From NCBI GenBank assembly GCA_023228145.1, contig JALOBU010000005.1:5573-69572 (forward strand): 64,000 bases of DNA. The letters run 5' to 3'. The stretch is from Bacteroidales bacterium (lineage in GTDB: Bacteria > Bacteroidota > Bacteroidia > Bacteroidales > CAIWKO01). Positions 46,416 to 62,420 of the stretch are shown piece by piece. The notes beneath the pieces were generated by a model that had not been told where the DNA came from, did not search any database, and was given only the letters and a program-made list of their open reading frames with translations. The stretch's first letter is position 1. Every line of letters begins with the position of its first letter. Position numbers and translations under genes: made by a program.

Positions 46416-46451
46416 TGTAAAAAAGTAAAGGCACGAATCTCTCCGTGCCTT
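46416..46451 (-). terminator. Terminator hairpin downstream of dcp
   Basis: The hairpin is aaggcacg (46428-35) / cgtgcctt (46444-51). On the minus strand it is followed by tac + tttttt. Confidence 0.65.
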
Positions 46452-46475
46452 TTATCTTTGAAATAATTGAAAATG

Positions 46476-48584: not shown

Positions 48585-48772
48585 TGGTTAAATTTTTGTT
48601 TAGTTATAAATTATCATTTTGATAAATAAAGGAAGGCAAAGTTACAAAATCATCATGTAAAAAATACGCAACAAATAAATTTATATTCATGTTAAAATGA
48701 TTGACATTATCAAATTTTTAATTTTATATTTGTATTAAAAATCAATCCGTAGATTTCTTAATATGTAATTTT

Positions 48773-49612
48773 ATGTCAATCAAAAAGGAGAATCATATCA
48801 TGGCAGACAAAGGCACAAAAAAGAAAATCACCCGGGTAGGAGGCCCCGAAACCGCTTCGACTATTCCTGCATCAAACACACCTCCCCCAACTGAAGCCAC
48901 AAAACCATATGTTACAAGTGACGAAAACAAAGCCAAAGCTAAAAAGTATCGCCTTATCGCGGTTATTTCATGGATTATTGCCATTGGTCTTGAAGTTGGA
49001 GCAATCCTTCTTTTGAACAAAAAGCCCGTACCCATGGTTTGGCTTATCGTTCTAATCGTGGCCGACCTCATCTTTGCCGTTATTGGTTCTATGTTGTGGA
49101 AAAAATCCAACAAGTTTAATCCTGCCTCCCAGAAAGAACCTATCAGATTTTTCATACAGAACCAGTTGGGCGCCATCATCAGTGTCATAGCTTTTCTGCC
49201 CCTCATTATCCTTATCTTCACCAACAAGAACATGACAGGTAAGCAGAAAGGGCTTGCCGGAGCCGTAGGTATAATTGCTCTTGTAATCGCAGGCTTTTTA
49301 GGCATTGATTTTAATCCTCCCTCGCAGGAAAAATACCAGGAACAAGCTCAGCACGCGAAGGATTCTATGCAAACCGAACAGGTTAAAGAACTTAATAATG
49401 GCATTGACCACGTGTACTGGACAAAATCCGGAAAAAGCTATCACCTGTATTCCGATTGCGGCTATATAAACACCGACAGGACCGACGAGATATTTGAAGG
49501 TACGGTATATCAAGCCAAACAACTGAAAAACATCACCGATATTTGCGACCGTTGCGCAAACAGGGCAAAGAAGGAGAAAGAAGCGTTGCTAAGAAACGAT
49601 AGTGTGAAGTGA
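48773..49612 (+). CDS. Hypothetical membrane protein with C-terminal His/Cys cluster
   Basis: 279 aa with four predicted TM helices. The C-terminal soluble part contains YHLYSDCGYI ... ICDRCANR (an H-x5-C ... C-x2-C pattern). The start could instead be the Met at 48800. Confidence 0.65.
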   Translation: MSIKKENHIMADKGTKKKITRVGGPETASTIPASNTPPPTEATKPYVTSDENKAKAKKYRLIAVISWIIAIGLEVGAILLLNKKPVPMVWLIVLIVADLIFAVIGSMLWKKSNKFNPASQKEPIRFFIQNQLGAIISVIAFLPLIILIFTNKNMTGKQKGLAGAVGIIALVIAGFLGIDFNPPSQEKYQEQAQHAKDSMQTEQVKELNNGIDHVYWTKSGKSYHLYSDCGYINTDRTDEIFEGTVYQAKQLKNITDICDRCANRAKKEKEALLRNDSVK

Positions 49613-49642
49613 ATTGTTAGAAGTTAGAGGTTATCAGTTATT
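49601..49642. repeat. Degenerate (c)AGTnnnn heptad array at the left border of the acylation cluster
   Basis: The units in 7-nt register are agtgtga agtgaat tgttaga agttaga ggttatc agttatt. The array spans the convergent stop codons of the 48773..49612 and 49638..50225 genes. Confidence 0.55.
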
Positions 49643-50225
49643 TTTTTCTTTCAGGCTGTTGTCTTTCCAGAATAGTTAAGCCGTGCCCTGATTCGATATG
49701 GTCTTTTATCTGCCATTCGGGGTGGTCGTCAATAAACTCAAATATAGCGGCTTTCATTCCAGGTCTGCCATCGAATGGGTTTTTAAGCCCGAAGGTCTCG
49801 GTGCTGTGCATCATAATCCATTTCTTCACCCTGAGATGATGATGTTCCAGTTCTGCTTTAATTTGTCCATACCAATGATCGGTATCTATATACAGTAAGT
49901 CGGTTTTTTTTATTTTAGCTTTCAACACATCTTTTTGTATCATTTTAAAAAACATGTCATCATCTTGGGCAGCCTGCTTTATCATGCGGGCATTTTCAGT
50001 AATCACAAGGTCATAAGAATAAACTTTTTTACAACCGGATATCAAAAACGCCAACGTTGAACAACCGGTGTCAATACCAAACTCTGTAACTTTTTCGCAT
50101 TGTGACGCATAGTATTTCAATATTTCAAGATGAAGTTTAACCGCTTCAGGCCTGAAACCCAAGCTGCCTTTTTTCATGCTGTCGTATAACTTGATAAGGT
50201 TTTTAGGGGTTAACTTTTCCATCAT
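49638..50225 (-). CDS. Class I SAM-dependent methyltransferase (Methyltransf_24/CmcI-like)
   Basis: 195 aa. Motif I is VTEFGIDTGCST. Further motifs are LLYIDTDHWYGQIKAELE and the C-terminal GLTILER. It overlaps the upstream gene's stop by 4 nt. Confidence 0.75.
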   Translation of the reverse strand: MMEKLTPKNLIKLYDSMKKGSLGFRPEAVKLHLEILKYYASQCEKVTEFGIDTGCSTLAFLISGCKKVYSYDLVITENARMIKQAAQDDDMFFKMIQKDVLKAKIKKTDLLYIDTDHWYGQIKAELEHHHLRVKKWIMMHSTETFGLKNPFDGRPGMKAAIFEFIDDHPEWQIKDHIESGHGLTILERQQPERKK

Positions 50226-51190
50226 CCAAATATCAGATTATTTTTTTTATGAGCAAATAATAAAGTAGCATTGGCCAGTTCAAAATTTTTCTCCCGCTCC
50301 AGTTCTCTTACAAATGCCTTGTGGTAATATTTGTCACCTTCTTCCAACAATTCAGATACTTTCATCCGAAGGAATTCCTCTTTAGCCTCATCCTTCAATC
50401 CATTTGCCCAGTTTCTCAAAATCCATGTGAGCGACCAGATAGGCAAGCCATAAGGGCTTATATCGGTTTTGTCTGTAATGAGTAACCCATCGAAAAGGTT
50501 TTCAAGGCCACGGCTTGTCATATTATAATAATGGTGAGGGTAACCATGGTAAGGCTGAAGGAAAGGCACGCTACACAACAATTCCCCACCTGGTTTTAAC
50601 ACCCGTGCAATTTCTTTAGCACATAAAAACGGATCTTTCACATGCTCTAAGACTGAAAGAGAGATAAGTGCGTCAAAAGCATTATCCTTAAATGGTAGTT
50701 GTTCCCCAACAGCTAATACATCAGTAGTGTCGTAATCCACAATCTCAAGGTTTACCACATTATCATAATAAATATCTCTCTGCCCTGCCCCGCAGTCAAG
50801 TATGAGGCCGTGTTCATATTTGTTTATTAAATCCAAAACAAAAGGCTCGTAAATATTGCTGCTGACCATATCGGTATCCACAATATTATAAGTTTCACGG
50901 AAATCGTCACTTAAAAAATCAAAATTCAGGTTTTCCGTTTCGATATAAGGCATATCATTACGCAGCAAAGGTTTCACTTTTTCCTGTTTGCATATTTTAG
51001 CATCAACAATGGTAGAGATTGGCAGTCGTATGTTCCTTCCTTCTTCTTTGCCGAAAAGTTCAAAATGCTGGCGTCCCGAGGCGGCTACTCCTTTTTTAAT
51101 GGCAATGGCGACATCGAAATTTGCAGCCAGGTAGGCTTCTTCCGTAAAATTTTCTTCTGTAGCTTTCTCAATTAATGTATAATTAGCCAT
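50222..51190 (-). CDS. Class I SAM-dependent methyltransferase (Methyltransf_11-like) with ~120-aa N-terminal extension
   Basis: 322 aa. Motif I is ILDCGAGQ. Downstream are LPFKDNAFDALISLSVLEHVKDP and LKPGGELL. Confidence 0.85.
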   Translation of the reverse strand: MANYTLIEKATEENFTEEAYLAANFDVAIAIKKGVAASGRQHFELFGKEEGRNIRLPISTIVDAKICKQEKVKPLLRNDMPYIETENLNFDFLSDDFRETYNIVDTDMVSSNIYEPFVLDLINKYEHGLILDCGAGQRDIYYDNVVNLEIVDYDTTDVLAVGEQLPFKDNAFDALISLSVLEHVKDPFLCAKEIARVLKPGGELLCSVPFLQPYHGYPHHYYNMTSRGLENLFDGLLITDKTDISPYGLPIWSLTWILRNWANGLKDEAKEEFLRMKVSELLEEGDKYYHKAFVRELEREKNFELANATLLFAHKKNNLIFG

Positions 51191-51232
51191 TTGAACTGAT
51201 TGGTTTGAACAAAGTTATAAAAAAATACAAAT

Positions 51233-54200
51233 TTATTTTGAAACCGTATCATTTCTGTGAATAGGTTTTGGTTTTGATAACAATAAATGATTAATAATAT
51301 CAATAGACATTTCCTGGATAACAATATCGGGCTTTTCTATAATAACAACTTCATGACAAAATTCAGGAGTCCAAAAATAAGATATTCGCTGAAAATTATG
51401 ACTTAAATAATGACTTAACCAATTAGAAAAAGAGTCCCTGAACATCAGTACGGAAGGAGTTGAAATTTTATTGTTAACATAACTAATGGCTGGATTATTA
51501 GAAATAGAAATGGGGTAATTCAAATATTGTATTTCTGTAGGCATGGATAGTTTTTTGCTTAGAGGATATAATACCTCATTTTGATAATACTCGTTGATGA
51601 GCATTATTTTGTACATTCCATTAGCCACACCCTCACCACCAAAGTTTCTATTCATAAACTCTTTGTAATCTTCAGAAATCAAAAAAGAATCAGGCACGGC
51701 ATCGCCAAATTTAAACCATTCAAAATCATTATAATTAGCAGGGGACGGGATTCCGGGGAAATCTTTTTTAATAGCTTCCACTATTGTTTTATATGCGTAA
51801 TAAGCTCCATAAAAATTCCAATGCGGGTCGTCTTTGTAATAAATATCTTTGGGAGATGCCTGCCTTAAATCGTAAAGTGTTTGATAAACGTCAATAATGT
51901 TCAGACGGGTATTTTTCTTTAAATAGGAAAGAAACTGCTCTAATTTTGTAACTCCATTATGTTTATATATAGAAGGCCTTAACTTATCCTCATAAATCAG
52001 CAGTGCAGAAGGAGGAAAAACCAAATAAAATTTTATTCCTTTTTTTTGCAGCCAATTGTTTCGTTCGACCAATATATCGGACATTTTTTTCAATTCTGCT
52101 TCTGTTAATGGTTTTCGGTTTTCATAAGTTTCCAATATCCATCCCTGAATAAAAAACATCCAGCCATCTTTACCAAAATGTATTTTTTTGTTATTAATTA
52201 GTTCGTTAAAGGTTTTGTATTCAATCAGGTTATTTAAAGTAATGATATTGGTTCGTCCGGGAACATTATCAACAATAAAATTATTTATTTTGTTCGTAAA
52301 AGACTGGCATGAATCGATAGAAAAATCAGGGAAACTCTGTGCATTTCTTTTTTCTTTAACGATATAATTTTTTTTAGTACTAAAAATACTAAAACCAATT
52401 ACATTTGAGATAAAAACAATAAAGAATATGTTTATAATGGCATGCCGGTAGTTGACTATTGGAAGTACTTTGCATATTACGAGTAACACCAAAAAAAGCA
52501 CCATTGACAAAAAAATAAATATATGTTTCTTTAAAATCAACAAATATTCTGCATCATCAGATTGTGCAGCAGAGTTTAAAATAAAATAAGGGTCGGGGCC
52601 TGTAATATGATAAGTATTTCCTTTTTTCACCATATCATTGACAACGAGATAATCATATGGGATGCGCGAATAATTCCATGTTTTTTTAATCAACCCGGAA
52701 CTTAATGCAATTTTGGGTTCTTCAATTGTTTTTACATTACCCTCTAAATCAACACGCTGAAATTTATATTTTTGTAAAAGTACCTGAGAAATAAAAACGC
52801 CCTTATGCTTGCCAGACAAGAGTTTCCATTCGCTCCAAAATTCGGGGGTATTATAATAATATAAAAAAGATGCCTCTATATTGTTTTTTGACGAAAGCTT
52901 CACATTAAATTCATCATCTTTTCCAATCCAGTAAAATATAAATACAAAGATTGATGTAAGCACCGAAATCAGTACATTTTTTTTTGGGTTCAGATTAAGA
53001 ATAGCCGCAAATAATATCAGAATAAAAATAATCATCAACACGATAACAAACGCATGCTTGTTTTGATTCTCAGTTTGCAAAATGTTGAATGGTTTTAAAT
53101 TAATCCTGACGGGCGTTTCGGATTTTGAAACTACAACATTATAATCAAGTGGCGATGACAGTAGCTGAGCGTTCGATATGTTGAACAAATTGGTATCTTT
53201 AGCAAGTAAGTTTTGTACTGTTTCTCCCTTGCAATAGTTTACAGAATTAAGAAAAATAGTGTCGTTGGCTGAAAGGTTTTCAATAAGAAGAAATAGTCTG
53301 TTGTCGGTGTTAATAGCTTTTTTATATTGAAATAATTTAAACCCGGGCTGAGATATTTCCCATTTAGCCAAACATTCATTAGAGTTGTTAATGCTGATAA
53401 ATCCAGGACTTGATGTTCTTGCGGAAAAATAAATGTATTCGCTTTTATTGTCGGCAACAGGTGATTTCCATGGCTGACAAACTAAAACATAGGCAGCAGG
53501 TATGAAAAATAGTGTCAATTGCGAAATGTGAAATTTTGATTTTTCGATAAAATTCATGTAGCGACTCAAACAAATCAGGAGCATGAAAAATATCAGAGAA
53601 ACAAATAAACATAACTTGTCTTTTAAAAATAACAGCCATTCTATACGCGATAAAAAATAACTGGTTGTAATTTTAAAATACGGGTCAGTTCCCGTAATGA
53701 TGTATTTGTCTCCCTGCAGCACTATATCATTTAACAATATACATTTTTGGGGAATTTTGCTTAAAGAAAATGTTTTACAAATAAATGTATTTATAAAACT
53801 TATTTTTAAATCATCAATTACACGATTGTCTGATTCTATGTCAAATCTCAGGTATTTTTCTTCGTGTAAATTAATTGGGGTAGTGTAATTAAGAATATTT
53901 CCGTATTTATAATACTTTTTTTCGCCCGAAAACAAAGGCGTATGGTTATGAAAAACCTCAGGGTTTTTTATTTCATTTTGACTGCTTATTTTAACTTGCC
54001 AAATATCGTTGTGGTTAAGTACATAAACCACTACCATAATCATTGATGAAATAAAAACAGTGAAAAAGAAGTATTTTGATTTTGGTGCAAATATGAATAT
54101 CAGCAAAAAGCATAGAACAAAAATTCCAATTATAACTATTTTCTTATAAAGGCCTAAATCATTGGTCTCCCATGAATAATAAGGAAAAAATGTAATACAG

Positions 54201-54646
54201 GCAGATTGGTTAGCTTGGATTGCAGTCAGTTGTATCTCATCTTTTTTAACATTGACCAATGCATTTGCAACCAGTGTTTTTTCTAAAAATGATTTATTCA
54301 GCGAAAACAAGCGATTATCACGATACAGATTAACACCAAGTATTGAAATAGTGTCGTGCGGCGAAAGATGTTCAATAATCAGGCTGATTGAAGAAGCATC
54401 TTTTAATGATCCATAAAATTCAAGGCTTTTATAACCGCTACTGTCAACCTTCCACGAAGTCATAACTTTATTGCCCGACAACAATGTAATATTTGTGTGA
54501 GAATTTGTTTTAACGGAAAAATAAAAATAATCATTGGTATCGGTATCAATGGGAACAGAAGATTTATAATCATCTTTAAGCAGAAAATACAAACAGGGTA
54601 TGAACAGAAAAAGGAGATATATATATTTTATTCGGTTTTTAAACAT
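51233..54646 (-). CDS. Polytopic membrane protein: 2 x (~365-aa TM/beta-domain module ending in G.DPYF + TM) fused to a C-terminal AlgX/AlgJ-type (DHHW) SGNH-like O-acyltransferase domain
   Basis: 1137 aa. The internal duplication covers aa 1-365 and 366-735 (nt 53552-54646 and 52442-53551). The C-terminal ~370 aa (nt 51236-52339) carry AlgJ/AlgX-family motifs: HFGKDGWMFF, YYKDDPHWNFYGA (DxHW, nt 51818-51829) and MFRDSFSNW. Confidence 0.85.
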   Translation of the reverse strand: MFKNRIKYIYLLFLFIPCLYFLLKDDYKSSVPIDTDTNDYFYFSVKTNSHTNITLLSGNKVMTSWKVDSSGYKSLEFYGSLKDASSISLIIEHLSPHDTISILGVNLYRDNRLFSLNKSFLEKTLVANALVNVKKDEIQLTAIQANQSACITFFPYYSWETNDLGLYKKIVIIGIFVLCFLLIFIFAPKSKYFFFTVFISSMIMVVVYVLNHNDIWQVKISSQNEIKNPEVFHNHTPLFSGEKKYYKYGNILNYTTPINLHEEKYLRFDIESDNRVIDDLKISFINTFICKTFSLSKIPQKCILLNDIVLQGDKYIITGTDPYFKITTSYFLSRIEWLLFLKDKLCLFVSLIFFMLLICLSRYMNFIEKSKFHISQLTLFFIPAAYVLVCQPWKSPVADNKSEYIYFSARTSSPGFISINNSNECLAKWEISQPGFKLFQYKKAINTDNRLFLLIENLSANDTIFLNSVNYCKGETVQNLLAKDTNLFNISNAQLLSSPLDYNVVVSKSETPVRINLKPFNILQTENQNKHAFVIVLMIIFILILFAAILNLNPKKNVLISVLTSIFVFIFYWIGKDDEFNVKLSSKNNIEASFLYYYNTPEFWSEWKLLSGKHKGVFISQVLLQKYKFQRVDLEGNVKTIEEPKIALSSGLIKKTWNYSRIPYDYLVVNDMVKKGNTYHITGPDPYFILNSAAQSDDAEYLLILKKHIFIFLSMVLFLVLLVICKVLPIVNYRHAIINIFFIVFISNVIGFSIFSTKKNYIVKEKRNAQSFPDFSIDSCQSFTNKINNFIVDNVPGRTNIITLNNLIEYKTFNELINNKKIHFGKDGWMFFIQGWILETYENRKPLTEAELKKMSDILVERNNWLQKKGIKFYLVFPPSALLIYEDKLRPSIYKHNGVTKLEQFLSYLKKNTRLNIIDVYQTLYDLRQASPKDIYYKDDPHWNFYGAYYAYKTIVEAIKKDFPGIPSPANYNDFEWFKFGDAVPDSFLISEDYKEFMNRNFGGEGVANGMYKIMLINEYYQNEVLYPLSKKLSMPTEIQYLNYPISISNNPAISYVNNKISTPSVLMFRDSFSNWLSHYLSHNFQRISYFWTPEFCHEVVIIEKPDIVIQEMSIDIINHLLLSKPKPIHRNDTVSK

Positions 54647-54652
54647 CGCTTA

Positions 54653-56047
54653 TCAGAATTTAAAGTAGAAAAACGGGTTAAATGATACGGTAATTAATCG
54701 CATAACCGAAAGTAAAAAAACGACTATCAATCCAAAAGTATAAACAGAATCAAACACTTTTTTTGTTTTCTCTTTTTTCAAAAATTTTGAAATTGATATA
54801 GGTACGCAAAGCGCAATTCCAACAGCCATAATCAAATAGTGTTCTTTCATAAAAAAAGAAGTTAGTCCCAGAGTGCCTTCTCTTGGAAAGCTGAACATAA
54901 CGGAATAATAATCTAATGCCTGCTTCAAATCTTGTGTTCTGAACAAAACTCCTACAACCAAAAGAATAAACCATGTGTACAACATTCCAAAACCTTTGAT
55001 ACGTTTTAATAGTTTTAGCAGAAACAAAGCCTCAAGCCCCATCAATATCCCCTGAGTAAGCCCCCAGATAATATAATTCCATGTAGGCCCGTGCCAAATT
55101 CCGCAAACTACAAATGTTACAACCAAGGAAAAAAAAACTCCGGCATTACCCCAGTATCTTAATGACAAAGACAATGGGCTAAAGATGTAGTCTTTAATCC
55201 AGTTGGATAGTGTGATGTGCCAACGGCGCCAAAATTCTGTGATTGACCTGCTAATGTATGGATAATTAAAGTTTTCGGGGAGTTCAAATCCAAGCATTTT
55301 TCCTACGCCAATCGCCATATCAGTATATGCAGCAAAATCAAAGAAAAATTGTAAGGCAAATGCAAGCATGCCTACCCAGGCAACTTCAGGGCCAATACGC
55401 CAAAAATCTGTCTCAATAATTTGAGTTACTACATAACTGATTTGATCGGCTATCAGTACTTTTTTTCCTAATCCAATAATAAATCTTCTGACTCCTTCGG
55501 TAAAACGCGGCAAATCAAATTGGCGTTTTTTTAACTGTTGTTCAATTGCAGGATATCGTACAAGAGGCCCGAGAATAAGCTGAGGAAACATTGTAATGTA
55601 GAGGATAACATAAGCAGGATTTTTTTCAAAACGCTTGTTGCGCCTGTAAACTTCAATATTATACGAAATTGCCTGAAACGTAAAAAAAGAAAGCCCAAGC
55701 GTACTTATCGTTTTAATTTCGGGCAAATTTTGAACTCCGACATATATAAGATTATCAATGATAAAGCCGATATATCTGAAGTAAAATAAAATCCCACTAA
55801 AAGTGCACACAGCAAGGATAAGAAATATTTTTTGAAATTTTGTTTTTACAATAAAAAATGAAAATAACCATGCCAGAATGCTAATAACCAACAGAAGAAC
55901 AACAAGTTTACCTGCTCCCCAAAAATAAAATACCAAACTGGCAATAAACAGAAAGAGGTTTTTAGCCCATATTTTTGGCAATAAATAATATCCTGCGAGA
56001 AAAACAGGAAAGAATATAAAAATAAAAACTATCGAACTATAGACCAT
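54653..56047 (-). CDS. MBOAT-family membrane O-acyltransferase (AlgI/DltB-like)
   Basis: 464 aa, about ten TM helices. The MBOAT signature with the catalytic His is FWRRWHITLSNWIKDYIF. The N-terminal FIFF...YY and C-terminal layout resemble AlgI/DltB. Confidence 0.92.
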   Translation of the reverse strand: MVYSSIVFIFIFFPVFLAGYYLLPKIWAKNLFLFIASLVFYFWGAGKLVVLLLVISILAWLFSFFIVKTKFQKIFLILAVCTFSGILFYFRYIGFIIDNLIYVGVQNLPEIKTISTLGLSFFTFQAISYNIEVYRRNKRFEKNPAYVILYITMFPQLILGPLVRYPAIEQQLKKRQFDLPRFTEGVRRFIIGLGKKVLIADQISYVVTQIIETDFWRIGPEVAWVGMLAFALQFFFDFAAYTDMAIGVGKMLGFELPENFNYPYISRSITEFWRRWHITLSNWIKDYIFSPLSLSLRYWGNAGVFFSLVVTFVVCGIWHGPTWNYIIWGLTQGILMGLEALFLLKLLKRIKGFGMLYTWFILLVVGVLFRTQDLKQALDYYSVMFSFPREGTLGLTSFFMKEHYLIMAVGIALCVPISISKFLKKEKTKKVFDSVYTFGLIVVFLLSVMRLITVSFNPFFYFKF

Positions 56048-56164
56048 CTGCAGCTTTTATTTCAATTATTTATTATATTCATTATCAATAAAAAGCATGT
56101 TTTTTAAAGTTTTTCCTGACAATACTCTCAACTTATGCAACCATTCAATCCTTAGAAAAACATA

Positions 56165-57652
56165 TCATATTTCTAGCAGCTTTTTCAGGTCGTTCTCGTT
56201 AAATTTCGGTTTATCAAAAACATTCCTGTAATATTCCAGTATCTTTTCAGTGTCGAAATGTTTTTTTATCACCTGGTAACTTTTCTGAATACGTTTAGTG
56301 TTAATGTTGACATAACGCATCCAGTAACCCAGAAGCTCTTTTAAATCATTACTTGTCAGGGGCACTTTTTCCCTTGGAAAAAGATCGCCGTAAAACTCAA
56401 TATCATTAAACATTTCCAGGTGTATGACTCTTTTTTCCTGTTCAGCTATCTGCCGGTATTGCTCTTCTGTTGGTTTCAGCAAATTGAAGACTCTGGAGTT
56501 ATTATATATCCGTAACACGCTCAGCATGGGTTGTGCAACATATTCAAAGGAACCTGCATAATTGATGGTCTGCATCGCTTCTTCGTAGGTTTCGGTCGGG
56601 AATCCGATGATAAAAAGTGTCCGGGTTATAAAGCGCCTCGATGCGGCATGTATCGCTACTGATGCTTTATCTACATCCAGGTTTTTTCCTATCAGCTTTT
56701 GTAAACGGGGCACAGCGCTTTCAACAGCCAGCGCCATTTCCACTGTTCGAGCTTGTTCAAGGAGGTCTATCATTTCTTCATCCACCTGGTCGGCACGAAA
56801 CCCGTTTGGAAAATTCACCCTGACATCAGGTAGTTCTTTAATGATCAACGCCAGTAGCTCTTTAGCAGCAGGCATTGGGACATTGAAAGTGTCGTCCAGA
56901 AAGACAAAATTGAAAATACCGCGCTTGTCACGCCGCTCTTTCATCTCAGTAACCACGTTTTCAGCAGATCGCCGCCGTATTCTTTTTCCGAACAACTGGT
57001 GGCAATAAAAACAATCATAGGGGCATCCGCGCGTAGCCAGAACAAAGGCACATTTAGACACTTCCTGCAAAGCCTGATTTTTAATGCCCCGATAATCATC
57101 CAGATTAATAAAATCATAATCCGGAAAAGGAATACTATTAATATCTTTTATATAAGGGCGCGCTTCATTCACCCGCACAGTTTCGTCTTCCAACACAGCA
57201 GTGCCTTTTATTTCATGAGGAATTAACGGGGAATTCATAAGATGACTTATCAACTCTGTAAAAGTTACTTCTCCCTCTCCTATCACGACGATGTTTGCCA
57301 TATTATCTCGTAAAATATCTTCAAAACATGTTGATGGGTATGGCCCTCCGGCTACTATTGGAATATCAGGTTTAAGTTCACGTACCTTTTCTGACACAAG
57401 TTTAAAAGGAACCTTGGCTGTTGATAGCGCCCTGAGGCCAACCATATCGGGATCGAATGACCGGACAAGAGATTCCACACTTTTTACAGGATCCTTGCTT
57501 GTTGAGGTATGAAAAACGCTAAACTCTATCTCGGGAAATTTTTCTCTGGCAGTTGAAACAAGATACATCAACCCTACGGGATGATGGCTAAAATATACAT
57601 ACTTGGGATCCCCGAAAATATCAACATCTATTAAAAGTATTCTTTTTATCAT
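56165..57652 (-). CDS. Cobalamin-binding-domain radical SAM enzyme (class B), paralog 1
   Basis: 495 aa. The N-terminus is a Rossmann-like B12-binding domain (ILLIDVD ... MVGLRALS ... IVAGGPY). The radical SAM CxxxCxxC is CPYDCFYC, encoded at 57002-57025. Confidence 0.9.
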   Translation of the reverse strand: MIKRILLIDVDIFGDPKYVYFSHHPVGLMYLVSTAREKFPEIEFSVFHTSTSKDPVKSVESLVRSFDPDMVGLRALSTAKVPFKLVSEKVRELKPDIPIVAGGPYPSTCFEDILRDNMANIVVIGEGEVTFTELISHLMNSPLIPHEIKGTAVLEDETVRVNEARPYIKDINSIPFPDYDFINLDDYRGIKNQALQEVSKCAFVLATRGCPYDCFYCHQLFGKRIRRRSAENVVTEMKERRDKRGIFNFVFLDDTFNVPMPAAKELLALIIKELPDVRVNFPNGFRADQVDEEMIDLLEQARTVEMALAVESAVPRLQKLIGKNLDVDKASVAIHAASRRFITRTLFIIGFPTETYEEAMQTINYAGSFEYVAQPMLSVLRIYNNSRVFNLLKPTEEQYRQIAEQEKRVIHLEMFNDIEFYGDLFPREKVPLTSNDLKELLGYWMRYVNINTKRIQKSYQVIKKHFDTEKILEYYRNVFDKPKFNENDLKKLLEI

Positions 57653-57674
57653 CGGTCAAATTAAAAGTTGCAAT

Positions 57675-59171
57675 TTAATATTTAAGCAGGTTTTGCAGGT
57701 CTTTTTCATTAAATTTCGACCTGTTAAAAAGGCTTGCATAAAATTCTATGGTCGTTTTCTCATCAAGATATTTCTTTAAAACCTGATGGCTTTTCTGCAC
57801 TCGCAGGGGGTTGGTTAAAACATCGCGCATCCATATATACAGGAGTTCTTTGATATCATCGCTTTTTAACGGCACTTTGTCATCCGGAAAAAAATCGCCG
57901 TAAAATTCCACTTCCCCAAACATCTGCAGGTGCAATACTTTTTTTTCCTGATGGGCGATGGCAGCAAATTGTTCTTCTGTAGGCTTAAGAATATTAAATA
58001 GTCTGGAATTATTATACAATCGTAACATGCTTAAAGTGGGTTGGGCAACATATTCAAATGAAGCAGCAAACCTGACAGTATCCATTGCTTCATCAAAAGT
58101 TTCTGTTGGAAATCCTATCATATAAAATATGCGGGTAATAAACCTTTTTGATGCTGCATGAATTACTTTTTCAGCTTTTTTCAGGTCTAGGTTCTTTCCC
58201 ATCATTTTTTGCAAGCGTGGTGTAGCTGTTTCCACAGCCAGTGCCATTTCAACAGTACCTGCCTTTTCAAAAAGGTCAAGCATTTCTTCATCCATCTGGT
58301 CGACACGCAACCCATTCGGGAAATTCAGCCGAACGCCAGGTAGTTCTTTAGTAATTAAAGATAACACTTTTTTCGCCTCCTGCATGGGAACATTAAAAAG
58401 GTCATCCAGAAATACAAAATCACTAATTCCCAGACTTTCTTTGCGTTCCCGCATTTCGGCAACAACATTTTCCGCTGACCGGCGCCGAATCCTCTTTCCA
58501 AAAATCTGGTGACAGTAAAAACAACCGTAAGGGCAACCGCGTGAGCTTAAAATATATGCGGGTTTGGAAGTATCCTGCATGGTATGATCTCGTATACCAA
58601 CATAATCTTTCAGGTCTATATAACTATAATCCGGAAATACAATAGTATCAATATCCTTTATCAAAGGACGCGGATCATTAACAAAAACCTTTTCATCTCT
58701 GAGTACAGCAGTTCCCCTAATATCACCTGGTATGGAATCTGATTCCATCAGACGGTCGATCAGTTCCACAAAAGTGTCTTCACCTTCTCCGATTACAGCG
58801 ATGTCAACACACCCATTCAATAAAATTTCAGCATAAGAAGCGGAGGAATAAGGCCCGCCGCCTATTATCGGCAGTTCGGGCTTCAATTCCCTGATTTTAT
58901 CTGCCACCAACTTAAAGGTAGATTTAGCTGTGGATAAAGCCCTTAACCCAACAATATCAGGATTATACGAAAACAAAAGCTCTTCAATACGTTTTAGTGG
59001 ATCTTTGTAAGTATAAGTATGAAAAACTTTAAACTGAATATCAGGAAACGATTTTCTGGCTGCAGAAACAAGATACAAAAGCCCGACAGGATGATGACTG
59101 TAATGAAGGGTTCCGGGATCATCCTTGTCCTCGAAAACTTCAACATCAATTAAAAGTACCCTGTTTATCAT
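57675..59171 (-). CDS. Cobalamin-binding-domain radical SAM enzyme (class B), paralog 2
   Basis: CPYGCFYC is encoded at 58512-58535. The protein is collinear with paralog 1 over its full length. I place the start at the ATG at 59171 (MINRVLLIDVEV), which aligns with paralog 1's MIKRILLIDVDI. The ORF-track start at 59237 would add 22 unaligned residues. Confidence 0.88.
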   Translation of the reverse strand: MINRVLLIDVEVFEDKDDPGTLHYSHHPVGLLYLVSAARKSFPDIQFKVFHTYTYKDPLKRIEELLFSYNPDIVGLRALSTAKSTFKLVADKIRELKPELPIIGGGPYSSASYAEILLNGCVDIAVIGEGEDTFVELIDRLMESDSIPGDIRGTAVLRDEKVFVNDPRPLIKDIDTIVFPDYSYIDLKDYVGIRDHTMQDTSKPAYILSSRGCPYGCFYCHQIFGKRIRRRSAENVVAEMRERKESLGISDFVFLDDLFNVPMQEAKKVLSLITKELPGVRLNFPNGLRVDQMDEEMLDLFEKAGTVEMALAVETATPRLQKMMGKNLDLKKAEKVIHAASKRFITRIFYMIGFPTETFDEAMDTVRFAASFEYVAQPTLSMLRLYNNSRLFNILKPTEEQFAAIAHQEKKVLHLQMFGEVEFYGDFFPDDKVPLKSDDIKELLYIWMRDVLTNPLRVQKSHQVLKKYLDEKTTIEFYASLFNRSKFNEKDLQNLLKY

Positions 59172-59225
59172 TATACCAACGACATTAAAATGTGCCCTTC
59201 CAGCTGCAAATATAATATTTATTGC

Positions 59226-59233
59226 TAATTTTG
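59226..59233 (+). promoter_or_regulatory. TAnnTTTG -7 box for the FkbH-ACP-methyltransferase operon
   Basis: taattttg lies 24 nt upstream of the ATG at 59257, within the 85-bp divergent intergenic region. Confidence 0.45.
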
Positions 59234-59256
59234 ACACAAATTAGCGACATGTGTTT

Positions 59257-60987
59257 ATGAAAGATTTCACTCACTTACGAAAAAATTTAAAGAAAGATTT
59301 TTCGGGTTTAATACAGGTAAAAGTGGCTGTGTTAGGCGACACCTCAACACAGTTTTTAGCTGAGGCCATTCGTAGCATGGGATATGAAAAAGACTTCAAC
59401 ATTGTGATGTGGGAAGCCGATTATAACCAAATTGAAAGGCAGGTGTTTGATAACACATCTGAATTATATAAATACAAACCAGAAATTATAATCATTTTCC
59501 AGTCTTCGCATAAATTACTATCCAAATTTAATAAGCTACAGCCGAATCAATACAACACACTTGCCCGAACAGAATTAGGGATAATTGATAATACATGCAA
59601 CACTTTATTCCACAACCTCAACACAAAAATAATTTTTTACAATTATTCAGAAATCAACGATGCTGTTTTTGGCAATTATTCCAATAAAACTGAATCGTCA
59701 TTTTTATTTCAACTTAGAAAACTCAACTACGAGTTAATGGAATATGCCATTAAAAATCATGATTTCTATTTGTGTGACCTTTCTGCGATACAGAACAGGT
59801 TTGGCAGGGCTGTTTTTTTTCAGCCATCAGTATACGTGAATGCTGAAATGGTACTTAGCATTGATGTTCTGCCAGAAGTGGCTTCCAAAACCATTGATAT
59901 CATCAGCGCATTACGTGGGAAGTTCATAAAGTGCGTGATCCTCGACCTGGACAATACCACTTGGGGCGGAATCATCGGTGAGGACGGGATTGAAAATATT
60001 CAACTTGGCAGCCTCGGCATCGGAAAAGCCTTTACCGAATTCCAGTACTGGATAAAAAAACTCAAGAACAGGGGAATCATCATCGCAGTTTGCAGTAAAA
60101 ACAGCGAGCACATCGCAAAAGAACCTTTTGAAAAACATCCCGACATGGTTCTGCAACTGAAAGATATTGCTGTATTTATTGCTAACTGGGGCAACAAGGT
60201 GGATAACATCATTCAGATCCAGAGCATCCTGAACATAGGTTATGATTCGATGGTCTTTATAGATGACAGCCCTTTTGAAAGAAATATCGTGAGAGAAAGC
60301 CTGCCTGATGTTTGTGTGCCGGAATTGCCCGAAGACCCGGCAGATTACCTGGAGTATCTTTATGGGCTGAACCTGTTTGAAACAACATCTGTTTCCGGCG
60401 CAGATGCTGAAAGAACCAGGCAATATCAGATTGAAGCACAGAGGAGTATCGTACAGCAAAAATTTACCAATGAAGATGACTATCTGAAAAGCCTGAATAT
60501 GCTGTCAGTGGTTGAACCATTTAATAAATATAACACACCCAGAGTCGCTCAACTTTCTCAACGCTCAAATCAGTTTAACCTCAGGACTGTTCGCTTCACG
60601 GAAACTGATATTAAAAAAATTGCAGAGTCTGAAACCCATTTTACTTTTGCATTTACCCTTGAAGATAAGTTTGGAGATAACGGATTGACAGGCGTGATAA
60701 TCCTTCAAAAAGAAGACACCGATACGGTTTTTATTAATACATGGTTTATGAGTTGCAGGATTTTAAAAAGAAGGATGGAACAATTTATGCTTAACACGAT
60801 TGCATCATTTAGCATTGATAACGGATACAGTTACTTGAAAGGAGAATATATTCCAACAATAAAAAATGAAATGGTGAAAGAACATTATAAAAATTTAGGA
60901 TTTGAAAAATCAGGAGAATTTTGGGTGTTACCTTTAAAAGATTATGAGTATAGAAAGTGTTTTATTAACAGGAAATTAGGTGAATAA
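59257..60987 (+). CDS. FkbH-like HAD-IIIC phosphatase/acyl-loading enzyme
   Basis: About 576 aa. The HAD motif I is VILDLDNTTWGG (DxDxT), followed by AVCSKN and FIDD. The N-terminal ~220-aa domain and the C-terminal GNAT-like domain (FTLEDKFGDNGLTGVII) are as in FkbH/OzmB-type proteins. The ORF-track start at 59251 is GTG; the ATG is at 59257. Confidence 0.85.
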   Translation: MKDFTHLRKNLKKDFSGLIQVKVAVLGDTSTQFLAEAIRSMGYEKDFNIVMWEADYNQIERQVFDNTSELYKYKPEIIIIFQSSHKLLSKFNKLQPNQYNTLARTELGIIDNTCNTLFHNLNTKIIFYNYSEINDAVFGNYSNKTESSFLFQLRKLNYELMEYAIKNHDFYLCDLSAIQNRFGRAVFFQPSVYVNAEMVLSIDVLPEVASKTIDIISALRGKFIKCVILDLDNTTWGGIIGEDGIENIQLGSLGIGKAFTEFQYWIKKLKNRGIIIAVCSKNSEHIAKEPFEKHPDMVLQLKDIAVFIANWGNKVDNIIQIQSILNIGYDSMVFIDDSPFERNIVRESLPDVCVPELPEDPADYLEYLYGLNLFETTSVSGADAERTRQYQIEAQRSIVQQKFTNEDDYLKSLNMLSVVEPFNKYNTPRVAQLSQRSNQFNLRTVRFTETDIKKIAESETHFTFAFTLEDKFGDNGLTGVIILQKEDTDTVFINTWFMSCRILKRRMEQFMLNTIASFSIDNGYSYLKGEYIPTIKNEMVKEHYKNLGFEKSGEFWVLPLKDYEYRKCFINRKLGE

Positions 60988-60988
60988 T

Positions 60989-61023
60989 CAGTTAGCAGTG
61001 AACAGTTAGCAGTGAACAGTGAT
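60989..61023. repeat. CAGTnnn heptad tandem array (5 units; also 2 x 14-mer) immediately after the FkbH stop
   Basis: The units are cagttag cagtgaa cagttag cagtgaa cagtgat, in strict 7-nt register. The array starts 2 nt after the TAA at 60985-60987. Confidence 0.9.
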
Positions 61024-61065
61024 AATGCGCAATAAATAATAAAATTGACATAAAACAAATAAAAA

Positions 61066-61308
61066 ATGGAAAGAAACGAAATTTTAAAACAAGTCAACGA
61101 AATCTTTATTGATGTCCTCGACAAGGATACTATCGTTTTAAATGACAATACAACCGCCAATGACATCGAAGAATGGGACTCACTGGCTCATATACGCCTG
61201 GTAGTAACTATCGAAAAAAAATTCAATGCTCATTTTTCATCAAAGGAAATTCAAAGCTGGGATAATGTGGGTGAGATGATTGATTGTATTTGTGAGAAAG
61301 TGAAATAA
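61066..61308 (+). CDS. Acyl carrier protein (stand-alone, DltC/ACP-like)
   Basis: 80 aa. The phosphopantetheine attachment motif is EEWDSLAHIRLV, with the Ser codon at 61180-61182. It is a four-helix-sized protein. Confidence 0.88.
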   Translation: MERNEILKQVNEIFIDVLDKDTIVLNDNTTANDIEEWDSLAHIRLVVTIEKKFNAHFSSKEIQSWDNVGEMIDCICEKVK

Positions 61309-61309
61309 C

Positions 61310-61379
61310 AGTCGGCAGTTGTCAGTTATCAGTTATCAGTTAACAGTTAACAGTTATCAGTTAACAGTCGATAGTTGGA
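61310..61379. repeat. CAGTTAn heptad tandem array (10 units) immediately after the ACP stop
   Basis: The units are cagtcgg cagttgt cagttat cagttat cagttaa cagttaa cagttat cagttaa cagtcga tagttgg, in strict 7-nt register. Confidence 0.92.
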
Positions 61380-61459
61380 AAGCGGTTAAAATTAATTTTA
61401 AATAATGGCAACGGGTTTCAGAAATTTATTATTTTTTTAAAAATATTCGTAGCAAAAAC

Positions 61460-62362
61460 ATGCAAAAAACCCTGGATTATATTATTGATAGCATAAGTTC
61501 GAAGAACAAATTACATGCTAAAAAAATAAAAAACAACATAAAAAACTTTGACGAAGAGTATTACACACGTGCTGACAATTTCTTCAAAAAATACCTGACT
61601 ATACTTCAAAAAGACAATAAAACCATTGATTACGCTATAGATTGCTACCTTCAGATGATTGCAGATATCAATTATGAAACGGTGCAGTTTGCTAAAACGG
61701 GAGAATATTCCAGTAAGTCATTCGAAGAAGTAAATAAAAGGGTTTACAGCAACCCTGAAGTGATGAAGTATTATGTTCATGGCATCCTTATGTCACAGTT
61801 TTTATGGGCACACCATTACAAAATTCATACATTCTTCAGCAAAATCATCAAAGAAAACAGCAACCACATTTCACGTTATCTTGAGGTGGGCGGAGGACAT
61901 GGCCTATACGCATCCGAAGCCATTAAAATAATCGGCAAACAATCTACATTTCATTTGGTAGATATCAGTCAAAGCTCACTTGAACTGGCAAAGATGATGA
62001 TTGATAACGACACCGTCAGTTATTTTCACTCGGACATTTTTCATTTTGAACCCTGCACCAAATATGATTTTATTACCATGGGAGAAGTTCTGGAGCATGT
62101 GGAAGAGCCCGGGAAACTTTTAAAAAAATTATATGACTTACTTGAAGATAACGGAAAATTATTTATAACCGCCCCTACCAATGGCCCTACCATTGACCAT
62201 ATTTATCTTTTCAAAAATGCTGACGAAATAAGAAATTTGATTGCGTCTGCAGGTTATTTTATTGAAAAAGAGTACTGTGTATATGCTGAGGATGTTAGCC
62301 CGGAAATTGCTGAAAAATATAAGGTATCTATGATGTTTGCAGGGATTCTGAAGAAAAAATAG
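61460..62362 (+). CDS. Class I SAM-dependent methyltransferase
   Basis: 300 aa. Motif I is YLEVGGGHGLY. Downstream are YDFITMGEVLEHVEEP and LEDNGKLFITAP. Confidence 0.85.
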   Translation: MQKTLDYIIDSISSKNKLHAKKIKNNIKNFDEEYYTRADNFFKKYLTILQKDNKTIDYAIDCYLQMIADINYETVQFAKTGEYSSKSFEEVNKRVYSNPEVMKYYVHGILMSQFLWAHHYKIHTFFSKIIKENSNHISRYLEVGGGHGLYASEAIKIIGKQSTFHLVDISQSSLELAKMMIDNDTVSYFHSDIFHFEPCTKYDFITMGEVLEHVEEPGKLLKKLYDLLEDNGKLFITAPTNGPTIDHIYLFKNADEIRNLIASAGYFIEKEYCVYAEDVSPEIAEKYKVSMMFAGILKKK

Positions 62363-62420
62363 CAATCGGTTTTTGTTGCCTTCCTAACCTGAACATTGTT
62401 CATCAATTAAAGGTTGCAGC

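What the first reader, a model, noticed from the sequence alone, without database searches (positions are those of the whole stretch)
51233..54646. Giant AlgX/AlgJ-type acyltransferase fused to a duplicated, uncharacterised TM/beta-domain module ending in G-x-D-P-Y-F
AlgJ/AlgX/DHHW proteins are normally ~350-480 aa with a single anchor. Here the SGNH-like domain (HFGKDGWMFF, DDPHW, FRDSFS) is preceded by ~735 aa built from two copies of one module. The module runs: TM helix, a ~130-aa beta-rich domain (YFYFSVKT.. / YIYFSARTSS..; ..DTI(S/F)(I/L)..VN(L/Y)), TM helices, a second ~120-aa beta domain, the motif ITG(T/P)DPYF, then a TM helix. The DPYF codons lie at 53675-53686 and 52583-52594. The alternating topology would place repeated soluble domains on one face of the membrane, possibly as substrate-polymer guides or carbohydrate-binding modules.
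Basis: partly seen in the sequence, partly recalled or inferred. Interest (0 to 1): 0.65.

Follow-up and report, generated by a model that had tools for sequence, protein, structure and literature searches.

The report
Acyltransferase fused to new membrane module
This is a real 1137-residue gene in an uncultured anaerobic Bacteroidales bacterium in which a known type of sugar-polymer acylating enzyme is fused to two copies of a previously undescribed membrane module with four outward-facing beta-sandwich domains, probably a scaffold or guide for decorating a surface polysaccharide.

Summary
ORF 51233-54646 (-) is intact. Residues 1-371 and 372-731 are duplicates (26% identity, E 1e-41). Both DPYF motifs are at the stated coordinates. 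The C-terminus is an AlgX/DHHW SGNH domain with its catalytic motifs.

The fusion is not a frameshift artefact. Twelve diverged protein clusters share the architecture, and four independent assemblies are identical.

Each module has four TM helices and two periplasmic beta-sandwiches (AlphaFold pLDDT 85; beta2 alone 97). It matches no Pfam, NCBIfam or PDB entry. An exhaustive HMM search of 1.84 billion proteins finds only 43 relatives. All the genomic loci recovered with the full module (17) come from uncultured Bacteroidota.

The module is either fused to the SGNH domain or encoded just after an SGNH gene. Every fused gene with upstream DNA follows a PatA/AlgI-type MBOAT with the FxYxxF acyl-shuttle tail. 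Neighbours are carrier-protein acyl-donor genes (FkbH-ACP, AMP-ligase-CP), methylases and Wzm/Wzt glycan-export genes.

The most likely role is a membrane scaffold or acceptor guide for periplasmic acylation of an ABC-exported glycan. A CBM identity is not supported by fold search. This is a new variant of a known kind, of moderate to high interest.

The parts
51233..54646 (-). Whole gene: double module + SGNH O-acyltransferase, 1137 aa (stop codon 51233-51235)
   Evidence: ORF; four independent assemblies are identical, with no gaps; the same architecture occurs in 11 other 50%-identity clusters and about 12 MAG loci.
53534..54646 (-). Module copy 1 (aa 1-371): TM1, beta1, TM2, TM3, beta2, amphipathic helix + TM4
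   Evidence: duplication E 1e-41. AlphaFold pLDDT 85.2, pTM 0.81; helices 8-24, 165-186, 190-210, 329-370; strands 39-152 and 216-326.
52454..53533 (-). Module copy 2 (aa 372-731): TM5, beta1', TM6, TM7, beta2', TM8
   Evidence: b1 and b2 HMM hits at aa 401 and 581; the same invariant residues as copy 1 (F603, R631, D633, N670, G683, D685, P686).
54152..54556 (-). beta1 domain of copy 1 (aa 31-165), periplasmic beta-sandwich; conserved Y42-F43-S44, D98-T99, N106
   Evidence: hhalign shows no sequence relation to beta2.
53663..54010 (-). beta2 domain of copy 1 (aa 213-328), periplasmic beta-sandwich carrying all family-invariant residues (F239, R267-x-D269, N306-D307, G319-x-D321-P322)
   Evidence: pLDDT 97.1, pTM 0.88; no significant PDB match.
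53057..53470 (-). beta1' domain of copy 2 (aa 393-530)
52571..52915 (-). beta2' domain of copy 2 (aa 578-692)
53675..53686 (-). D-P-Y-F of copy 1 (aa 321-324), the end of beta2 just before the membrane-return helix
   Evidence: D and P are conserved; Y and F are variable.
52583..52594 (-). D-P-Y-F of copy 2 (aa 685-688)
52370..52453 (-). TM9 (aa ~737-755), the anchor that returns the chain to the periplasm before the SGNH domain
   Evidence: hydropathy; the conserved juxtamembrane E765-x-R767...P773 motif follows it.
51236..52369 (-). SGNH-like AlgX/DHHW O-acyltransferase domain (aa 760-1137)
   Evidence: Pfam; the nearest solved structures are B. cereus PatB1 and AlgX.
51821..51829 (-). Catalytic D940-P-H942 (the D-x-H-W block)
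   Evidence: it aligns with PatB1 D-H-H-W and AlgX D-Q-H-W. H942 and W943 are invariant.
51431..51436 (-). D1071-S1072 (catalytic serine block FRDSFS)
   Evidence: invariant; it aligns with PatB1 KDSFA.
54653..56047 (-). Partner MBOAT (464 aa), 6 nt upstream of the fused gene; the C-terminal acyl-shuttle motif F-F-Y-F-K-F is encoded at 54656-54673
   Evidence: Pfam MBOAT. DltB is the best NCBIfam hit, below cut-off. (DltB structures); the motif is present in 18/18 partner MBOATs. (PMC12148441) defines FXYXXF.
56165..59237 (-). Two B12-binding radical-SAM enzymes (495 and 520 aa) upstream in the same direction
   Evidence: they recur in related loci.
59251..62362 (+). Divergent FkbH (578 aa), acyl carrier protein (80 aa, EEWDSLAH), methyltransferase (300 aa)
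   Evidence: the trio recurs in L003, L005, L006, L012, and without a detected FkbH in L009; the serine motif is conserved.
49638..51190 (-). Two methyltransferases (322 and 195 aa) directly downstream, co-conserved with the fused gene
   Evidence: the pair follows the fused gene in the window and in L004, L005, L006, L008, L009 and L010.
62459..64000 (-). Paralogue: stand-alone double-module gene (731 aa in full, cut by the window end). It belongs to a second, split MBOAT-SGNH-module system.
   Evidence: frame open to the window edge. (b2, b1, b2 hits). L082 has MBOAT, AlgX 579 aa, then this gene. P0046 is 731 aa.

Best explanation
What it is:
- The ORF is one authentic gene. Its C-terminal 378 aa are the periplasmic SGNH (AlgX/AlgJ/PatB/DltD-type) acyltransferase. 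It works with the MBOAT encoded 6 nt upstream.
- That MBOAT carries the C-terminal FxYxxF acyl-tyrosine shuttle, so the chemistry is expected to follow the PatA/PatB and DltB/X/D scheme: a cytoplasmic acyl donor passes the acyl group to the MBOAT tyrosine, then to the SGNH serine, then to an extracytoplasmic polymer.
- The N-terminal 731 aa are a tandem duplication of a ~365-aa unit (TM, beta1, TM-TM, beta2, TM). This unit defines a new, rare protein family of uncultured Bacteroidota.
- With nine TM helices and the N-terminus inside, all four beta-sandwiches sit on the periplasmic membrane surface next to the SGNH domain. Each is tethered to the membrane at both ends.

Most likely role (inferred):
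- The modules form a membrane-embedded scaffold. It holds the SGNH domain against the MBOAT and presents the membrane-proximal, lipid-linked glycan, delivered by a Wzm/Wzt-type ABC exporter, to the active site. In short, it is an acceptor guide or docking platform.
- The acyl group is probably not plain acetate. It is probably a carrier-protein-borne unit (FkbH-ACP derived, possibly methylated; AMP-ligase plus carrier protein in relatives).

Shown here: the gene, the duplication, the fold, the predicted topology pattern, purifying selection, the family distribution and the synteny.
Inferred: the acceptor, the donor, and the binding or scaffolding role.
For: - Gene and duplication.
- SGNH identity and catalytic motifs.
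- Module fold: pLDDT 85, four TM helices plus two beta-domains; beta2 pLDDT 97.
- Topology. The N-terminus and the TM2-3, TM4-5 and TM6-7 loops are short and K/R-rich. The SGNH domain must be extracytoplasmic, as in all characterised relatives (PMC12148441).
- Selection. dN/dS is 0.23 for the modules against 0.33 for the SGNH domain.
- Not an artefact: 11 other 50%-identity clusters have double module + SGNH. Four assemblies are identical. In the split systems the gene order is SGNH then module, the reverse of the fusion, so the fusion is not read-through of adjacent genes.
- MBOAT linkage. An MBOAT gene lies upstream on the same strand in 16/16 fused loci with upstream DNA.
- Shuttle motif: (18/18 partner MBOATs).
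- Glycan context: Wzm, Wzt, double GT2 directly upstream in L010 and L016; FdtA/DegT next to the paralogous system.
- Distant beta2-only proteins also lie in Wzm/Wzt or glycan-decoration loci.
- Carrier-protein genes in the clusters.
Against: - No binding or activity data exist.
- The beta-domains have no significant similarity to any CBM or other ligand-binding family, so glycan binding is unproven.
- The only characterised tandem beta-sandwich accessory of an MBOAT-SGNH machine, AlgF, does not bind its polymer.
- Wzm/Wzt genes are seen next to the system in only some loci, and not within the window itself.
- Use of a carrier protein by a PatA-type MBOAT has no precedent. PMC12148441 states that non-Dlt pathways lack carrier proteins. 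The carrier-protein genes could serve a different step of the pathway.
Confidence: 0.55

Rival explanations
1. AlgF-like adaptor. The beta-sandwiches do not touch the glycan. They mediate protein-protein contacts that assemble the MBOAT, one or two SGNH proteins and the export machinery into one complex.
For: -: AlgF is two beta-sandwich domains, binds no alginate, and bridges AlgJ and AlgX.
- several loci encode two SGNH proteins (a ~580-aa one plus the module-bearing one), as AlgJ and AlgX do in the alginate system.
- The module exists as a separate protein in the split systems, as an adaptor would.
Against: - There is no sequence or fold similarity to AlgF (no AlgF among the Foldseek hits).
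- The invariant polar cluster in beta2 (R-x-D, N-D, G-x-D-P) looks more like a ligand or metal site than a protein interface.
- Distant beta2-only proteins occur in loci without any SGNH gene.
Confidence: 0.28
2. Transport function. The eight module TM helices form a channel or scramblase-like groove that moves the lipid-linked acceptor (or the acyl donor) within the membrane, with the beta-domains as a periplasmic cap.
For: Eight to nine TM helices is more than an anchor needs. The genes are associated with export loci.
Against: - The TM helices are the least conserved parts. There are no invariant polar residues in them, and dN/dS is 0.40-0.56 in TM2-3 and TM6-7.
- Single-module (4 TM) and beta2-only (2 TM per unit) versions exist.
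- Dedicated Wzm/Wzt exporters are already present.
Confidence: 0.08
3. Artefact. The long ORF results from a frameshift or mis-assembly that merges separate module and SGNH genes.
For: Split versions of the system do exist.
Against: - In the split versions the order is SGNH then module, the opposite of the fusion.
- The fused form recurs in 11 other diverged clusters and about 12 MAG loci.
- Four independent assemblies have 0 differences and 0 gaps.
- dN/dS is below 1 along the whole length.
Confidence: 0.01

Closest known systems
PatA/PatB (peptidoglycan O-acetylation) and AlgI/AlgJ/AlgX (alginate O-acetylation) MBOAT-SGNH systems
   Same: There is an adjacent MBOAT with the C-terminal FxYxxF acyl-tyrosine shuttle. 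The SGNH-like AlgX-family domain has the D-x-H-W and D-S blocks, and its nearest solved structures are PatB1 and AlgX. The SGNH domain is tethered to the membrane on the periplasmic side.
   Different: The known SGNH partners have a single N-terminal anchor helix and are about 350-480 aa. Here the anchor is 9 TM helices with four inserted beta-sandwiches. The clusters also carry carrier-protein loading genes (FkbH-ACP, AMP-ligase-CP), which those acetyl-CoA-dependent systems lack.
Dlt pathway (DltA-DltC-DltB-DltX-DltD) for D-alanylation of teichoic acids
   Same: The MBOAT's best NCBIfam and PDB matches are DltB. Relatives encode a DltA-like AMP-ligase and a ~77-aa carrier protein with a WDSL serine next to the MBOAT-SGNH pair.
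   Different: The MBOAT scores far below the DltB equivalog cut-off (149 vs 375 bits). The shuttle motif is fused to the MBOAT rather than sitting on a DltX microprotein. The host is a Gram-negative Bacteroidota member. In the window the donor genes are FkbH-ACP rather than an AMP-ligase.
AlgF (tandem beta-sandwich accessory of alginate acetylation)
   Same: It is a periplasmic pair of beta-sandwich domains that accompanies an MBOAT and two SGNH proteins.
   Different: AlgF is soluble, and its two domains resemble each other. Here beta1 and beta2 are unrelated in sequence, each is inserted between TM helices, and no sequence or fold similarity to AlgF was found.
C2 / PLAT membrane-interface beta-sandwiches and CBMs
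   Same: The general shape is a beta-sandwich of about 120-130 aa. C2 and PLAT recur among the weak Foldseek hits for the module and for beta2 alone, and one porphyran-binding CBM (8xmz) appears among the weak hits for the whole module only.
   Different: No hit is significant for the beta2 domain (best E 0.098, TM-scores at most 0.40). There is no Pfam match in 48 copies. Membership of any of these families is not supported.

Membership tests
AlgX/AlgJ/DHHW SGNH-like O-acyltransferases (Pfam PF16822, PF14286) | Profile match above the curated cut-off | tested here: met
   ALGX 66.3 bits (cut-off 26.5); DHHW 30.9 bits (cut-off 25).
AlgX/AlgJ/DHHW SGNH-like O-acyltransferases (Pfam PF16822, PF14286) | Catalytic Asp-x-His and Ser blocks | tested here: met
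   D940-P-H942-W aligns with PatB1 D-H-H-W and AlgX D-Q-H-W, and D1071-S1072 aligns with PatB1 D-S. H942 and S1072 are invariant in 12 fused homologues. The Asp is replaced by N or S in some homologues.
AlgX/AlgJ/DHHW SGNH-like O-acyltransferases (Pfam PF16822, PF14286) | Extracytoplasmic location behind a membrane anchor | tested here: inconclusive
   This is a prediction only. Nine hydrophobic helices and the positive-inside pattern place the domain in the periplasm. There is no experimental topology.
AlgX/AlgJ/DHHW SGNH-like O-acyltransferases (Pfam PF16822, PF14286) | O-acyltransferase activity on a polymer | not testable with these tools
   Needs biochemistry.
MBOAT-SGNH acyl-shuttle systems (PatAB type) | Adjacent MBOAT gene | tested here: met
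   (6-nt gap); 16/16 related loci.
MBOAT-SGNH acyl-shuttle systems (PatAB type) | C-terminal FXYXXF motif on the MBOAT | tested here: met
   the window MBOAT ends NPFFYFKF, and the motif is present in 18/18 partner MBOATs. The motif is defined in PMC12148441.
MBOAT-SGNH acyl-shuttle systems (PatAB type) | Conserved MBOAT histidine | tested here: met
   The translation contains ...CGIWHGPTWN... inside the Pfam MBOAT match. Assigning this His as the catalytic one rests on established knowledge of the family.
MBOAT-SGNH acyl-shuttle systems (PatAB type) | Acyl-CoA as donor | not testable with these tools
   The context (FkbH-ACP; AMP-ligase-CP in relatives) suggests a carrier-protein donor instead. 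This is unproven.
Dlt D-alanylation pathway | DltB equivalog score | tested here: not met
   TIGR04091 scores 148.9 bits against a cut-off of 375.
Dlt D-alanylation pathway | Separate DltX microprotein and a DltA ligase in the operon | tested here: not met
   The shuttle motif is fused to the MBOAT. No AMP-ligase is seen in the window part examined, 46000-64000, although relatives have one.
   no Pfam match; no PDB sequence match; beta2 model (pLDDT 97) has 0 Foldseek hits at E<=1e-3; the best CBM hit is 8xmz, E 0.11, TM 0.14/0.31.
AlgF | Sequence or fold similarity to AlgF beta-sandwiches | tested here: not met
   AlgF is not among the top 50 Foldseek PDB hits listed for either model, and there is no Pfam hit.

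The most novel reading that the evidence does not exclude
The cluster is the first example of a carrier-protein-fed MBOAT-SGNH pathway outside Dlt. It operates in a Gram-negative phylum through a PatA-type MBOAT with a fused tyrosine shuttle. It installs an unusual acyl group (FkbH-derived glyceryl, possibly C- or O-methylated) on an ABC-exported surface glycan. The duplicated TM/beta-sandwich modules are a new class of membrane-integrated 'acceptor rails'. Their beta2 domains (invariant R-x-D, N-D, G-x-D-P) bind the lipid-linked glycan at the membrane surface, and their copy number (1 or 2 per protein) sets where or how often the chain is acylated.
Probability: 0.25. Interest if true: 0.75.

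Novelty: new variant of a known kind. Interest (0 to 1): 0.6.

Why it matters
MBOAT-SGNH pairs decorate peptidoglycan, alginate, cellulose and teichoic acids. These decorations shape resistance to lysozyme, antimicrobial peptides and phages. Their mechanism, the acyl-tyrosine shuttle, was only worked out in 2023-2025. How the SGNH enzyme finds its polymer at the membrane is still unclear.

This family adds a large, conserved, membrane-integrated accessory made of beta-sandwich domains with no solved structural relative detected. Its genomic context also suggests carrier-protein-borne, non-acetyl acyl donors in Gram-negative bacteria.

The work defines a new domain family that could be deposited in Pfam. 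Because fused and split versions sit side by side in one genome, it also offers a tractable test of how acceptor presentation is organised in these machines. The hosts are abundant uncultured Bacteroidales of anaerobic digesters and wastewater.

Tried and rejected
1. The search for homologous proteins with the module alignment A1 returned nothing, not even the self hits. The candidate list was probably swamped by hydrophobic words, so that search was wasted. The exhaustive HMM search replaced it.
2. The search for related loci with A1 failed for lack of a conserved 7-10-column stretch. It was redone with the full-length alignment A2, which keys on SGNH motifs. Module-only genes in genomes were therefore not surveyed directly.
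3. hhalign of beta1 against beta2 found no relation.
4. hhalign of the N-terminal domain of the ~580-aa SGNH proteins against beta2 was only suggestive (P 0.0095, probability 4%). I do not claim homology, although both share the R-x-D and D-P-[YF] signatures.
5. I considered the Tyr of DPYF as an acyl-acceptor tyrosine like that of DltX. I rejected this because the Tyr varies (Y/F/H/S) while only G-x-D-P is conserved, and the sequence does not fit FxYxxF.
6. The sub-threshold Pfam hints BD_b_sandwich and LD_SV2 on distant copies do not recur across the 48 beta2 domains.
7. Expression could not be judged. The 'metatranscriptome' runs give 52-kb contigs with flat depth, which suggests DNA carry-over.
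8. Literature searches for FkbH, carrier protein and MBOAT-SGNH in Bacteroidota or glycan contexts found no precedent.


Full report
OBSERVATION

The window contains one uninterrupted ORF at 51233..54646 on the minus strand (1137 aa, ATG start).
- HFGKDGWMFF at aa 823, DDPHW at 939, FRDSFS at 1069.
- YFYFSVKT at aa 40 and YIYFSARTSS at 404.
- DPYF at aa 321 and 685, which corresponds to window 53675-53686 and 52583-52594.

BLASTP of residues 1-370 against 371-760 gives 26% identity over 365 aligned residues with E = 1e-41, so the internal duplication is real. Pfam places an ALGX domain at aa 823-964 (66 bits, cut-off 26.5) and DHHW at aa 866-1086. Neither Pfam nor NCBIfam matches anything in residues 1-820.

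ANATOMY OF THE MODULE

I aligned ten single-module copies: two from this gene, one and a half from a paralogue in the window, and six from three relatives. The alignment shows a ~365-aa unit. All its invariant residues lie in the second soluble domain: F239, R267, D269, N306, D307, G319, D321 and P322.

An AlphaFold model of copy 1 built on this alignment is confident (pLDDT 85.2, pTM 0.81). It shows:
- helix 8-24;
- an all-beta domain at 39-152;
- helices 165-186 and 190-210;
- a second all-beta domain at 216-326;
- helices 329-370.

A model of beta2 alone, built on 48 copies, reaches pLDDT 97.1 and pTM 0.88. Beta1 and beta2 show no sequence relationship to each other (hhalign probability 0.1%).

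With 48 copies aligned, only F, R, G-x-D stay invariant, and D (of R-x-D), N and P stay nearly invariant. The tyrosine and phenylalanine of 'DPYF' vary (Y/F/H/S and F/I/V/L). The conserved signature is therefore R-x-D ... N-D ... G-x-D-P, not G-x-D-P-Y-F.

TOPOLOGY

Hydropathy gives nine TM segments. The N-terminus (MFKNRIK) and the TM2-3 (APKSK), TM4-5 and TM6-7 (NLNPKKN) loops are short and K/R-rich. The long beta-domains are not. This is the positive-inside pattern for an N-in protein.

That topology puts all four beta-domains and the SGNH domain on the periplasmic side. The SGNH domains of PatB, AlgJ/X and DltD act on that side (PMC12148441). Each beta-sandwich enters and leaves the membrane through adjacent helices, so it must sit directly on the membrane surface. 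This is a prediction and has not been measured.

IS THE FUSION REAL?

Yes, on four grounds.
- An exhaustive HMMER search with the module profile against 1.84 billion representative proteins found 43 proteins at E <= 1e-3. Eleven further 50%-identity clusters have the same double-module + SGNH architecture at ~1090-1140 aa (P0002, P0008-14, P0016, P0017, P0021).
- A genome scan recovered about 17 loci that match the protein end to end. All are from uncultured Bacteroidota/Bacteroidales MAGs, with at most 36% identity.
- Four independent public assemblies are identical to the window over 49000-64000, with no differences or gaps.
- dN/dS against the 85%-identical homologue in L003 is 0.23 over the modules and 0.33 over the SGNH domain. 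The modules are therefore at least as constrained as the catalytic domain.

FAMILY AND ARCHITECTURES

The family is small and unannotated. Every named member is 'hypothetical protein'. The architectures are:
- double module alone, ~730-740 aa (P0003-P0006, and the window paralogue P0046 at 731 aa);
- double module + SGNH, ~1100 aa;
- single module + SGNH, ~740-750 aa (P0022-P0026; loci L016-L018 and L020);
- single module alone, 366 aa (P0020);
- more distant proteins made only of 'TM - beta2 - G-x-D-P-Y/F - TM' units: three in P0036, two in P0041, one in P0039, and one placed in front of an AlgX domain in P0044.

The ~580-aa SGNH proteins of the split systems also begin with a TM, a beta-domain carrying 'R-[IV]-D-P' and 'N-x-D-P-[YFN]', and two TM helices. 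The profile-profile score against beta2 is not significant, so I leave that relationship open.

GENOMIC CONTEXT

In the window the gene order on the minus strand is: two B12-binding radical-SAM genes, the MBOAT, the fused gene, then two methyltransferases. Divergently on the plus strand lie FkbH, an 80-aa acyl carrier protein (EEWDSLAH) and a third methyltransferase. After these comes the stand-alone double-module paralogue, which runs off the window end.

A near-identical MAG contig shows what lies beyond the edge. The paralogue is the third gene of a second operon, MBOAT - AlgX (579 aa) - double module, next to divergent FdtA and DegT genes for a dTDP-3-amino-3,6-dideoxyhexose. This organism therefore carries a fused and a split version of the system side by side.

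Across the related loci:
- An MBOAT gene lies upstream on the same strand in 16 of 16 fused loci that include upstream DNA. It is adjacent in 10, separated by a second SGNH gene in 3, and separated by a small ORF in 3.
- The two downstream methyltransferases, the B12-rSAM, the FkbH-ACP-methyltransferase trio, and/or an AMP-ligase plus a ~77-aa carrier protein recur.

All 18 partner MBOATs end in NPF[IFL]YF[KR][FY], and 16 fit FxYxxF strictly. All carrier proteins keep the WDS[LM] serine.

In L010 and L016 the MBOAT is directly preceded by Wzm- and Wzt-type ABC-2 transporter genes and a ~710-aa double-GT2 glycosyltransferase. By ORF layout L017 looks the same. The distant beta2-only proteins also sit in glycan loci:
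- P0041 and P0042 lie beside Wzt (with Wzt_C), methyltransferases and large GTs.
- P0036 lies beside a carbamoyltransferase, a hexapeptide acetyltransferase and an AT3 acyltransferase, with an MBOAT five genes upstream.

WHAT THE CATALYTIC PART IS

The SGNH domain's nearest solved relatives are Bacillus cereus PatB1 and AlgX. D940-P-H942-W aligns with their D-x-H-W block, and D1071-S1072 aligns with the PatB1 D-S block. H942 and S1072 are invariant in the 12 fused homologues.

The MBOAT's nearest solved relatives are DltB structures. DltB is also its only NCBIfam hit, far below the equivalog cut-off. Unlike DltB, it carries the shuttle hexapeptide itself, as PatA and AlgI do.

MECHANISM

By analogy with PatA/PatB and Dlt (PMC12148441), the acyl group should pass from a cytoplasmic donor to the MBOAT's C-terminal tyrosine (Y461 in ...FFYFKF), then to Ser1072 of the fused protein, then to the acceptor.

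The context argues that the acceptor is a lipid-linked glycan exported by an ABC transporter. It also argues that the donor may be carried on a phosphopantetheinyl protein rather than CoA. These steps are inferred.

For the modules, I consider the best-supported role to be a membrane-embedded scaffold or acceptor guide. The supporting points are:
- Four constrained beta-sandwiches are pinned to the periplasmic membrane surface beside the SGNH domain.
- A conserved polar signature is concentrated in beta2.
- The association with MBOAT-SGNH operons is obligatory.
- The wider beta2 family is tied to glycan-export loci.

The main rival is an AlgF-like role. AlgF is a tandem beta-sandwich protein that binds no alginate and bridges AlgJ and AlgX. 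The presence of two SGNH genes in several loci fits that picture. A transport role for the TM helices is less likely, because the helices are the least conserved parts.

COMPARISON WITH KNOWN FOLDS

Foldseek against the PDB gave no meaningful match for the whole module. The top hits are two-domain C2 proteins with TM about 0.12. Local hits to PLAT, C2 and one CBM have E >= 0.036.

For beta2 alone there was no hit at E <= 1e-3 despite the near-perfect model confidence. The best TM-scores are at most 0.40, and C2/PLAT lipid-interface sandwiches recur weakly. No Pfam family recurs over the 48 beta2 copies, and a profile search of PDB sequences is empty.

The CBM assignment is therefore not supported. 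The domain is best described as a new beta-sandwich family.

HABITAT

The sequence occurs in bioreactor, wastewater, anaerobic-digester, landfill, manure and groundwater metagenomes. Expression could not be assessed.

VERDICT

This is a new variant of a known kind. It is an MBOAT-SGNH polymer acyltransferase with a previously undescribed, duplicated TM/beta-sandwich accessory module, in a cluster that also hints at carrier-protein-borne acyl donors. Interest is moderate to high for cell-envelope biochemistry.

Noticed in passing
window 62459-64000 (-), continuing beyond the window end: A second, unfused double-module gene (731 aa in full, P0046) with two more G-x-D-P-Y-F motifs. In a near-identical MAG contig (L082) it follows a second MBOAT (437 aa) and a 579-aa AlgX gene, next to divergent FdtA and DegT genes. 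The organism therefore has a fused and a split version of the system side by side.
   Followed up: yes
window 54656-54673 (-), C-terminus of the MBOAT: The MBOAT ends in F-F-Y-F-K-F, the FXYXXF acyl-tyrosine shuttle motif described for PatA, AlgI and DltX. It is conserved in all 18 partner MBOATs of related loci.
   Followed up: yes
window 56165-62362: Two B12-binding radical-SAM enzymes, an FkbH (glyceryl-loading type), an 80-aa ACP and a methyltransferase flank the MBOAT. Relatives add or substitute an AMP-ligase plus a carrier protein. This suggests a carrier-protein-borne, possibly methylated, non-acetyl acyl donor. Non-Dlt MBOAT-SGNH systems are reported not to have this.
   Followed up: partly
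window 52001-54000: The module-coding region has the lowest G+C of the whole window (0.308, against roughly 0.35-0.44 in the other 2-kb bins). This could reflect an amino-acid composition rich in F, I, L, N and K, or foreign origin. I did not resolve which.
   Followed up: no
window 54592-54646 (first 18 codons): Public gene calls for this protein (P0001, P0002) start at residue 19 and cut off the first TM helix. Homologues conserve the K/R-rich N-terminus and this helix, so the ATG at 54646 is the likely true start.
   Followed up: partly
window 55647-55698: A 52-nt stretch inside the MBOAT gene recurs about 3.4 kb beyond the window end on the same contig (0-7 mismatches). This is consistent with the paralogous MBOAT2 gene there.
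   Followed up: partly
L010 9191-11080, L016 9821-11560, L020 9233-10993, L002 3406-5127, L082 2807-4546: The ~580-aa 'plain' SGNH proteins of these systems begin with a TM, a ~130-aa beta-domain carrying R-[IV]-D-P and N-x-D-P-[YFN] signatures, and two TM helices. This may be a diverged single beta2-like domain, but the profile comparison was not significant.
   Followed up: partly
window 48773-49612 (+): A 279-aa predicted membrane protein with a Cys-containing C-terminal tail and no family match, lying between the cluster and a Dcp-type peptidase gene. Whether it relates to the cluster is unknown.
   Followed up: no
window 49000-64000 in runs X10-X12: Libraries labelled metatranscriptomic assemble 52-kb contigs with flat depth across coding and intergenic DNA. 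They probably contain genomic DNA and cannot be used as evidence of expression.
   Followed up: partly
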